Shown here: positions 5,260 to 5,810 of the stretch, piece after piece
Layout: each line of letters begins with the position of its first letter
How positions within the stretch are numbered: position 1 is the stretch's first letter
Assembly (NCBI GenBank): GCA_910592345.1
Contig: CAJVPI010000027.1
Span: 57,638 to 77,637 of the forward strand
DNA: 20,000 nucleotides
Reading direction: 5' to 3'
Source: Paraglomus brasilianum
Taxonomy: Eukaryota
Translations under genes and position numbers: made by a program
The notes under the pieces: model-generated
Seen by the model: the letters and a program-made list of their open reading frames with translations, nothing else
What the model was told of the DNA's origin: nothing
Databases searched by the model: none

Positions 5260-5810
5260 TTTCACAGCAGGCGCGTCACCGATGTCAAGGCCGGGGTCCT
5301 GACGGGTAAACTACGCAAACTGTGACCACGATGCGCTTTCAATTCAATGGTCTCTGTATCCTATTCACCACAGCCCGAGCGTGATAAGCTACAGTCGGCG
5401 TTTCGGAACGGATTACCGAACGTTCACAGCAAGTAATCATTCACGATCAGACCCCCGAACCATAAAGTATTTCAAGTGTATCCTATTCACCCCAAAGCCG
5501 AAGTATGCACAGGTAACGGGGTTTTGATTAATTTACACCCTGTGTGCTTTCAAAACCTCCGACTTACAGCGTACCTTCAGATGCACATACTAAGTAATTA
5601 CACGAAAGATAAACAATCTACATGTGTAGCCCGATGCGCTTTCGCGTAATCCGATTTTTAACCTAGGGGCAGCGTACTTAGGATATAAACCACCCCAGTA
5701 AGAATTATTATTACCTCGTCTTCAAACTGCCTTCCTCTTGCTACGCTACGGAACTCGTCTTAAATAAAAAAAACCGCGTCGGTACGGGCCTACTTCTTTT
5801 ATCACGCTAA
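5260..5810 (-). ncRNA. Candidate large structured RNA or structured UTR of unknown family
   Basis: GC-richer island with at least 8 helices found by eye, several needing G-U pairs that work only on the minus strand. It also has an H-type pseudoknot, a CGC-GAAA-GCG tetraloop and repeated motifs, and no ORF of 60 aa or more lies inside it. Confidence 0.6.

What the first reader, a model, noticed from the sequence alone, without database searches (positions are those of the whole stretch)
5260..5810. Unassigned ~550-nt multi-domain, pseudoknotted RNA on the minus strand
Seen (minus-strand reading): closing helix AGCGUGAUAA(5808-5799)/UUAUCACGCU(5387-5378), 10 bp perfect over ~420 nt. Directly abutting it is GCUGU-A-AGUCGG(5570-5559)/CCGACUGUAGC(5398-5388). 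An H-type pseudoknot is formed by GGUUUUGA(5557-5550)/UCAAAACC(5527-5520) crossed with CACAGG(5544-5539)/CCUGUG(5513-5508). Further helices: GGGGUGGU/GCUGCCCC (5696-5666), a CGC-GAAA-GCG tetraloop (5646-5637), UACAC/GUGUA (5628-5599), GGGGUC(5455-5450)/GACCCC(5298-5293), and a 3' domain GCUGUG/CACAGU with GACCAU/GUGGUC (5374-5319). CGGAUUAC(5653-5646) is complementary to GUAAUCCG(5416-5409), which lies mostly in the loop of a UUCGG/CCGAA hairpin, like a tertiary loop contact. Several G-U pairs favour the minus strand, and a TATA plus CT/CA leader lies ~300 nt upstream. I found no hallmark of snRNAs, U3, SRP, RNase P/MRP, group I/II introns, or a TTAGGG telomerase template. Inference: an undescribed Pol II structured lncRNA or regulatory UTR upstream of, and co-oriented with, RPL9.
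Basis: partly seen in the sequence, partly recalled or inferred. Interest (0 to 1): 0.85.

Follow-up and report, generated by a model that had tools for sequence, protein, structure and literature searches.

The report
Folded lariat RNA inside nuclease genes
The flagged stretch is a decayed copy of a multi-copy nuclease gene of a Paraglomus-type mycorrhizal fungus, and its first intron is a conserved, folded RNA of about 500 bases matching no Rfam family, which likely persists as a circle after splicing and would hold the nuclease in check.

Summary
The structured RNA is real, but it is not a stand-alone lncRNA or an RPL9 leader. Window 5714-5229 (minus strand) is intron 1 of a decayed copy of a multi-copy gene for an Mrr-type restriction-fold nuclease, often tail-anchored, in Paraglomus-type fungi. 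A metagenome scan gave 19 homologous loci of 20; nuclease exon 2 follows in 14 of 19 and RPL9 in none. The intron is better conserved (67-70%) than the exons (40-52%). It holds two nested copies of one junction module with covarying helices, and a closing helix covers the branch point. Rfam finds nothing. In an RNA-type run of a relative, one contig joins the branch point to the 5' splice site, the mark of a lariat. A c-di-AMP riboswitch likeness was tested and failed. Function is untested; my best guess is an RNA partner that restrains the nuclease.

The parts
6123..6132 (-). TATA-like box of the host gene
   Evidence: Sequence; region 6167-6069 is shared with L006
5760..6122 (-). CA/CT-rich 5' leader of the host gene
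   Evidence: Shared in blocks with L006 (E 1e-11 to 1e-17) and weakly with L007 and L002 (E 2e-5 and 5e-6)
5715..5747 (-). Remnant of nuclease exon 1 (reads SVARGRQFEDE); no start codon, and about 14 codons shorter at its 3' end than L001
   Evidence: Matches the start of the L001 reading frame
5229..5714 (-). Intron 1 structured RNA, from the 5' splice site (GT at 5714-5713) to the predicted branch A (5229); the predicted lariat circle
   Evidence: Alignment with 11 homologous introns; junction contig in a relative
5691..5699 (-). 5' arm of the terminal helix S1 that pairs with the branch-point sequence; altered here, with the following stem partly deleted
   Evidence: S1 pairs not predicted in this copy
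5656..5687 (-). Module A, 5' half of the outer domain
5451..5596 (-).
   Evidence: Covariance model hit of 101.7 bits, a training sequence; pair counts
5355..5410 (-). Module D, 3' half of the outer domain, with its variable arm and the near-invariant motif at 5369-5355
5263..5354 (-). D tail: conserved motif at 5340-5329 and helix 5324-5319/5268-5263 closing a variable insert
   Evidence: Helix 98.5% paired over 12 rows; variants in runs X1, X19, X20
5228..5253 (-). Decayed 3' stem and K-turn-like strand (5253-5236) and branch-point motif TTACTCAT (5235-5228)
5214..5220 (-). Remnant of exon 2; the native 3' splice site seen in L003 and L006 is deleted
   Evidence: Comparison with L003 and L006

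Best explanation
The window holds a decayed copy of a multi-copy gene for a small Mrr-type nuclease whose first intron is a conserved, covarying RNA that is likely spliced out and kept as a stable tail-less lariat, and that would act in trans as a shared partner restraining the nucleases of the family. Shown: the gene anatomy, the nuclease fold, the multi-copy state, conservation above that of the exons, and covariation in the inner domain. Supported by one contig: lariat formation at the predicted branch A. Inferred: the terminal helix over the branch point protects the lariat from debranching, the RNA is in excess over the mRNA, and it binds and inhibits the protein. The window copy has lost its protein and part of the fold, and may at most add to the RNA pool.
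For: 19 of 20 pattern hits are homologous. A nuclease exon-2 motif follows in 14 of 19. Open reading frames across three exons: L001, L007, L010, and L009 up to its contig end. Pfam Mrr_cat passes its cut-off in 8 of 10 database relatives; the model has pLDDT 87.9 and its best match is MspJI. Intron identity is 70% against 49, 52 and 40% for exons, and 67% with the searched motifs masked. Inner domain: 93.5% of cells paired, 9 of 41 pairs with two-sided change, 0 of 500 shuffles. The swap test is significant for three helices and for none of four controls. Run X19 has a 626-nt contig going from the branch region back to a GT 5' splice site, with T at the branch-A position, as inverted lariat reads do (PMC4138330, passages). 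Exon 2-exon 3 spliced contigs exist in X19 and X20 at depth 4.5 and 5.6, against 53-1082 for most listed intron contigs. Wherever exons can be read, the host is this nuclease family, which ties the RNA to this protein.
Against: No binding, inhibition or toxicity was tested. The lariat junction is one contig in one run of another species; X20 does not list it, 34 joints were not shown, and no DNA run of that species was laid. Contig depth is a poor measure of expression and diverged exons fail to lay, so the excess is only suggestive. Intron similarity does not follow exon similarity (Mantel p = 0.58): L014 and L018 share the variable arm (91%) but not the exons (52%), and L001 and L014 share exons (77%) but not the arm (45%). 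That argues against cognate pairs as in type III toxin-antitoxin systems. Loci were found through an intron motif, so family members without the RNA could not be seen. Most outer-domain helices are nearly invariant and gave no covariation signal, and several strands have two possible partners. The CM alignment is fitted to its structure, and related sequences inflate the counts. Some copies with a good RNA have frameshifted exons (L012, L015, L016, L018).
Confidence: 0.37

Rival explanations
1. The intron is a cis-acting splicing switch, possibly a riboswitch. The terminal helix hides the branch point and keeps the nuclease off until a ligand or protein refolds the RNA; the lariat is a by-product.
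For: S1 covers the branch motif in 11 of 11 rows with letters and is predicted at p of 0.83 or more in 10 of 12 introns. Strands of module A can pair either with module D or with the 3' end next to the branch point. Long unpaired invariant motifs suit a binding pocket. L006's second copy keeps a mini-intron with S1 alone.
Against: The only junction evidence shows completed splicing. The two partners of the S3 strand could not be told apart (p = 0.14 and 0.35). No Rfam riboswitch matches, and the c-di-AMP test failed.
Confidence: 0.2
2. The lariat is an independent non-coding RNA with a cellular job, and the nuclease gene is only its host, as with snoRNA host genes. Repeated motifs might form T-loop platforms that bind tRNA or the ribosome.
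For: The RNA outlasts the exons in the window, L003 and L006. A window-like copy has a 263-nt contig in X19. A box C/D-like K-turn can be drawn at the ends (by eye).
Against: No other host gene was seen in 19 loci. No snoRNA or other Rfam match. The candidate guide regions vary between copies. The T-loop likeness is recalled and untested.
Confidence: 0.2
3. The intron is a selfish RNA. Its abundant circle is reverse-transcribed or recombined into paralogs, which homogenises introns and duplicates modules, with no benefit to the fungus.
For: Intron similarity is uncoupled from exon similarity, and the C and D arms are homogenised within an intron (76% within, 52% between, p = 5e-5). Many rearranged copies occur in DNA and RNA contigs.
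Against: It was found at one position of one gene family only. No reverse transcriptase or transposase was seen among ORFs of 110 aa or more in the 19 loci (read by eye). Ordinary gene conversion between conserved introns explains the pattern. The tail anchor does not suit a homing enzyme.
Confidence: 0.15
4. One reading: a free-standing Pol II lncRNA or a regulatory UTR of RPL9.
For: TATA box upstream and co-orientation with RPL9; the window copy itself encodes no protein.
Against: Exon remnants, a 5' splice site and a branch point flank it. None of 19 homologs lies by RPL9. About 840 nt separate it from the RPL9 start.
Confidence: 0.04
5. A neutral repeat whose helices are chance or follow from internal duplication.
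For: The window copy folds no better than shuffles. Loci were selected by an intron motif.
Against: Two-sided changes exceed all shuffles and slid controls; cognate strands pair better than swapped ones; 8 of 11 homologous introns have z below -2.
Confidence: 0.04

Closest known systems
Stable intronic sequence RNAs (sisRNA, tail-less lariats) of vertebrates (PMC4138330, PMC6112733; passages read)
   Same: Intron of 100-500 nt scale, junction from branch point to 5' splice site with a mismatch, apparent excess over the host mRNA.
   Different: PMC4138330 reports that orthologous frog genes share sisRNAs no more often than chance. This intron is better conserved than its exons, has covarying domains and is repeated across a gene family.
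Type III toxin-antitoxin systems, ToxIN/CptIN/TenpIN (PMC5086642; passages read)
   Same: A nuclease co-transcribed with a structured, internally repeated RNA; repeats alike within a locus.
   Different: Eukaryotic and intron-encoded; restriction-fold protein with a tail anchor rather than a ToxN-fold RNase; no tandem 34-36-nt repeats; RNA does not track the protein; no inhibition shown.
Fungal intronic TPP riboswitches (PMC5640933; passages read)
   Same: A conserved structured element in a fungal intron, placed to affect splicing.
   Different: No TPP match; fills the whole intron; host is a nuclease family; no ligand known.
c-di-AMP (ydaO) riboswitch, RF00379
   Same: By eye, a three-way junction with a few similar short motifs, in permuted order (consensus).
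   Different: No sequence support against 31 real examples in either direction and no model hit; the second junction and the pseudoknot are absent.
Intron-hosted box C/D snoRNAs and stable lariats bearing snoRNAs (PMC8609340; search listing only)
   Same: Intron-encoded RNA with a terminal stem, C-like and D-like boxes, and hosts that lose coding capacity.
   Different: Boxes are in reversed order, there is no constant guide, it is far longer, and no Rfam snoRNA matches.
Mrr_cat (PF04471) and RRG7 (PF10356) restriction-fold proteins; MspJI
   Same: E...D...QxK motif and fold.
   Different: Single small domain, often with a C-terminal long helix and hydrophobic tail; expanded in Paraglomus; RNA in intron 1.

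Membership tests
Any Rfam family | Covariance-model match at or near the gathering score | tested here: not met
   Window: 2 weak hits elsewhere at E up to 5. 19 loci: 4 weak hits, all far below gathering. Only the linear order was scanned.
Spliceosomal intron | GT 5' site, branch motif and AG 3' site between exons of one reading frame | tested here: met
   Branch A 16-31 nt before an AG in 17 of 19 loci; open frames in L001, L007, L009, L010. The window copy has lost its 3' site.
Stable intronic lariat RNA | Read joining branch point to 5' splice site, with a mismatch | tested here: met
   One contig, depth 498.5, run X19; not listed for X20, X1 or X3.
Stable intronic lariat RNA | RNase R resistance, long half-life, excess over mRNA | not testable with these tools
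   Only contig depths were available.
c-di-AMP riboswitch | Sequence likeness of the conserved halves | tested here: not met
   Best ranks 170 of 3213 and 317 of 5452 peaks; no nhmmer hit at the matching halves.
c-di-AMP riboswitch | Two three-way junctions, six helices and a 3' pseudoknot | tested here: not met
   Each unit has one junction; equivalents of P4-P6 and the pseudoknot are absent.
Riboswitch (any) | Ligand-dependent refolding that changes splicing | not testable with these tools
   Alternative pairings exist on paper only.
Type III toxin-antitoxin | ToxN/CptN/TenpN-family RNase toxin | tested here: not met
   Proteins match Mrr_cat and RRG7; PADLOC gives only weak Mrr-like hits.
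Type III toxin-antitoxin | Antitoxin co-evolves with its toxin | tested here: not met
   Mantel p = 0.58 on 9 loci; exons are near saturation, so power is low.
Type III toxin-antitoxin | RNA binds and neutralises the protein | not testable with these tools
   Needs a bench test.
Box C/D snoRNA | 5' box C, 3' box D and a constant antisense guide | tested here: not met
   Order reversed and sequences before the D-like boxes vary; no target search was run.
RNA-guided nuclease | Variable guide that matches a target | tested here: inconclusive
   Variable arms match their own locus no better than other loci (0-8 nt for own, up to 10 nt for others); no genome was available.
Interdigitated T-loop RNAs (T-box, RNase P, L1 stalk) | Two head-to-tail T-loops that bind the tRNA elbow | not testable with these tools
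   Motif likeness is recalled; PMC4810234 passages give no consensus.
Mrr-type restriction-fold nuclease (host gene) | Pfam Mrr_cat match, catalytic motif and fold | tested here: met
   The folded protein P0060 is a database relative whose intron was not seen, and it has no Pfam hit itself. Activity untested.

The most novel reading that the evidence does not exclude
Early-diverging fungi carry a eukaryotic protein-RNA toxin-antitoxin or immune module: a membrane-anchored restriction-fold nuclease whose own first intron is released as a stable, highly folded circular RNA that binds the enzyme, or senses a signal, and so controls a cell- or nucleus-killing activity. It would be the first such system built from a spliceosomal lariat.
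Probability: 0.3. Interest if true: 0.93.

Novelty: categorically new. Interest (0 to 1): 0.76.

Why it matters
Large conserved structured RNAs are rare in eukaryotic nuclear genomes, and the described stable lariats I read about are not conserved folded RNAs. Here an intron is more conserved than the protein it interrupts, recurs in many copies and stays tied to a nuclease. If it controls the enzyme, it extends RNA antitoxins or riboswitch-like sensing to fungi. It also offers a testable handle on self/non-self conflict in multinucleate mycorrhizal fungi. Even without that link it is a new RNA family, a target for structure work, and a model for how a lariat escapes debranching.

Tried and rejected
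No genome is held for the window. Rfam on the window and on 19 loci gave nothing. Phage and plasmid blastn gave no match. Viral contigs gave 0 hits with two family patterns. Prokaryotic genomes gave 3 hits, and L005 a fourth, that match only the pattern. No run on record as RNA was listed as a holder of the window stretch; this says nothing on expression, and the RNA-type runs X19 and X20 had no cover between 4370 and 5225. The c-di-AMP riboswitch idea came from memory and was rejected; the four primary papers were not held. A U2/U6 mimicry idea: three loci share 13 nt with the Rfam U2 consensus, but the U2 and U6 models do not hit and no U6 sequence was obtained; not supported. A guide role for the variable arms found no support in the flanks. 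An all-against-all column search was swamped by G-U noise. The protein atlas did not answer and the viral search with alignment A4 could not run. Rows left out: L002 throughout as a duplicate of L007; L015 and L006; L010 and L006 from the model; the S1 value for L004 is unreliable because the script took a later 3' end. Ten literature searches listed nothing on this family; subscription journals are mostly not covered and no supplements were read. A second survey of conserved fungal RNAs (Gao, Jones and Rivas) is recalled, not read.

Full report
Setting. The window is fungal. It holds an intron-containing RPL9 gene and an STE3-like gene, and the STE3-like protein is 90% identical to one of Paraglomus occultum. 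No genome is held.

Observation. The region folds no better than shuffles (z = 0.25) and a 10-bp inverted repeat arises in 13% of shuffles. What exceeds chance is an 18-nt and a 12-nt direct repeat (repeated 14-mers in 0 of 300 shuffles). Rfam finds nothing there.

It is a family. Laying contigs on 3300-6500 showed 113 contigs in the best DNA run X1, most of them diverged and piled on 5226-6190. One contig matches 3300-5307 without a difference. Two runs of a related organism, X19 and X20, show both RPL9 introns spliced out, so they contain RNA. They hold many variants of 5314-5375. A pattern built from the repeats found 20 metagenome loci, 19 of them homologous, with the weakest best hit at E = 2e-11. 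L002/L007 and L012/L015/L016 are near-duplicates, leaving 16 distinct loci. Viral, phage, plasmid and prokaryotic collections gave nothing real.

It is an intron. In the homologs the RNA lies between a GT 5' splice site and a branch motif 16-31 nt before an AG, in 17 of 19 loci. Full introns are about 410-540 nt. A nuclease exon-2 motif follows in 14 of 19 loci, and L008 shows the host's exon 3 as well. RPL9 occurs in none. Three exons give open frames of 168, 203 and 242 aa in L001, L007 and L010, and L009 is open up to its contig end. L012, L015, L016 and L018 are frameshifted. Exon 2 matches Mrr_cat weakly in 6 of 6. Database relatives are named Paraglomus in 6 of 10 clusters looked up and Gigaspora in 1, and 8 of 10 pass the Mrr_cat cut-off. 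A model of one (pLDDT 87.9) has a restriction-endonuclease core and a 67-residue C-terminal helix, and its best matches are MspJI and Holliday-junction resolvases. Many members end in a hydrophobic stretch (read by eye). The window copy keeps an 11-codon piece of exon 1 without a start codon, the 5' splice site and the branch motif. It has lost the 3' splice site and nearly all of exon 2. L003 and L006 are decayed in the same way.

The RNA is the conserved part. Mean identity is 70% for intron 1 (10 sequences), against 49%, 52% and 40% for exons 1, 2 and 3, and 53% for the AT-rich intron 2. Masking the searched motifs leaves 67%. The loci were found through the intron, so this is biased towards conserved introns.

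Structure. The intron holds two copies of one unit, one nested in the other: modules A and B are 5' halves, C and D are 3' halves. RNAalifold, unprompted, predicts the terminal helix S1 over the branch motif, the A-D and B-C helices and the D-tail helix. My 72-pair model gives 87.8% of cells paired and 15 two-sided cells, above all 500 shuffles; slid controls pair at 31-49%. One helix there was misregistered (33%). On a model-fitted alignment of the inner domain, 93.5% of cells pair and 9 of 41 pairs change on both sides; such an alignment leans to its structure. A test free of column register compares cognate with swapped strands. It gives p = 0.0002 for hairpin Y, 0.003 for the inner e/m helix and 0.006 for the B flank, out of 16 helices tested; the four controls give 0.60-0.94. 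Most outer-domain helices barely vary and gave no signal. Eight of 11 homologous introns fold at z below -2 and the window copy at -0.8 (22 shuffles each). The model finds the held-out L019 at 112 bits, a single copy in the window, and nothing in 35 control loci. The variable arms of C and D are alike within an intron and differ between introns (76% against 52%). Strands of module A have two possible partners, module D or the 3' end, where a K-turn-like motif can be drawn by eye.

RNA form. Laying X19 and X20 on the intact locus L001 placed 109 and 114 contigs, nearly all on intron 1. One contig in each run joins exon 2 to exon 3 at depth 4.5 and 5.6. Its match begins at the 3' splice site of intron 1 and its upstream part does not fit the intron, which suggests a fully spliced mRNA. 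One X19 contig (626 nt, depth 498.5) runs to L001 position 2339, reads two T, and continues with a GT 5' splice site and the S1 arm. The second T stands where the branch A is expected (2341). Inverted reads with errors at the junction are the published mark of tail-less lariats (PMC4138330, passages; PMC6112733, passages). This is one contig in one run, 34 joints were not shown, and no DNA of that species was laid. Contig depth cannot rank expression.

Mechanism. Shown: anatomy, fold, conservation and inner-domain covariation. Likely (about 0.7): the intron accumulates as a lariat. Inferred: S1 shields the branch, and the RNA restrains the nuclease in trans. I prefer this (0.37) because the RNA was seen only in this gene family, outlasts its exons and appears to exceed the mRNA. 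A one-to-one antitoxin is disfavoured, since introns and arms do not track exons. A splicing switch (0.2), an independent hosted RNA (0.2) and a selfish intron (0.15) remain open.

Comparison. It works like a stable intronic lariat and is arranged like a type III toxin-antitoxin pair (PMC5086642, passages), but it fails the tested membership features of the latter. A recalled likeness to the c-di-AMP riboswitch was tested on 31 real examples and failed both ways. The 15 fungal motifs of PMC5640933 (passages) gave no hit for 'endonuclease' or for mycorrhizal genera. Ten searches listed no description of this family. Two unchecked notes of this scan describe restriction-fold genes with a folded first intron in chytrids. 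Sequence look-ups found no likeness, so they are leads only.

Verdict. A real, apparently undescribed structured RNA family, seen here in a decayed copy, with function untested. Interest 0.76.

Noticed in passing
L001:1477-1584; also L009 (twice), L014, L015, L018: A conserved upstream element of about 100 nt with hairpin-like arms precedes one group of the nuclease genes. It is deeply covered in DNA runs and barely in the RNA-type runs, so it may be a promoter element.
   Followed up: partly
L006:1612-1667: A second, tandem decayed copy has a mini-intron of about 55 nt that keeps only the 5' splice site, the S1 hairpin over the branch motif and the 3' site.
   Followed up: no
L009, L012, L015, module B: 13 nt are identical to the branch-recognition region of the Rfam U2 consensus; other copies share only 7 nt. 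Probably chance.
   Followed up: partly
L007 and L019, module A and 3' end: In the K-turn-like pairing a U-U position becomes C-C in both loci, a possible non-canonical covariation (by eye).
   Followed up: no
Proteins P0037, P0051, P0069: Relatives of the nuclease that read as single open frames in metagenome records; possibly intron-less or of endobacterial or viral origin.
   Followed up: no
window 3389-4369 (-): RPL9 with two introns; both are spliced in runs X19 and X20. Unrelated to the finding.
   Followed up: yes
window 16289-17909 (+): STE3-like pheromone receptor gene, 90% identical to a Paraglomus occultum protein.
   Followed up: partly
window 10100-12253 (+): KH-domain gene (KHDC4/BBP-like) with a proline-rich tail.
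   Followed up: no
L010:1-196; L007 5' leader; L019 and L020 downstream: Short tandem duplications in leaders and flanks of several family members.
   Followed up: no
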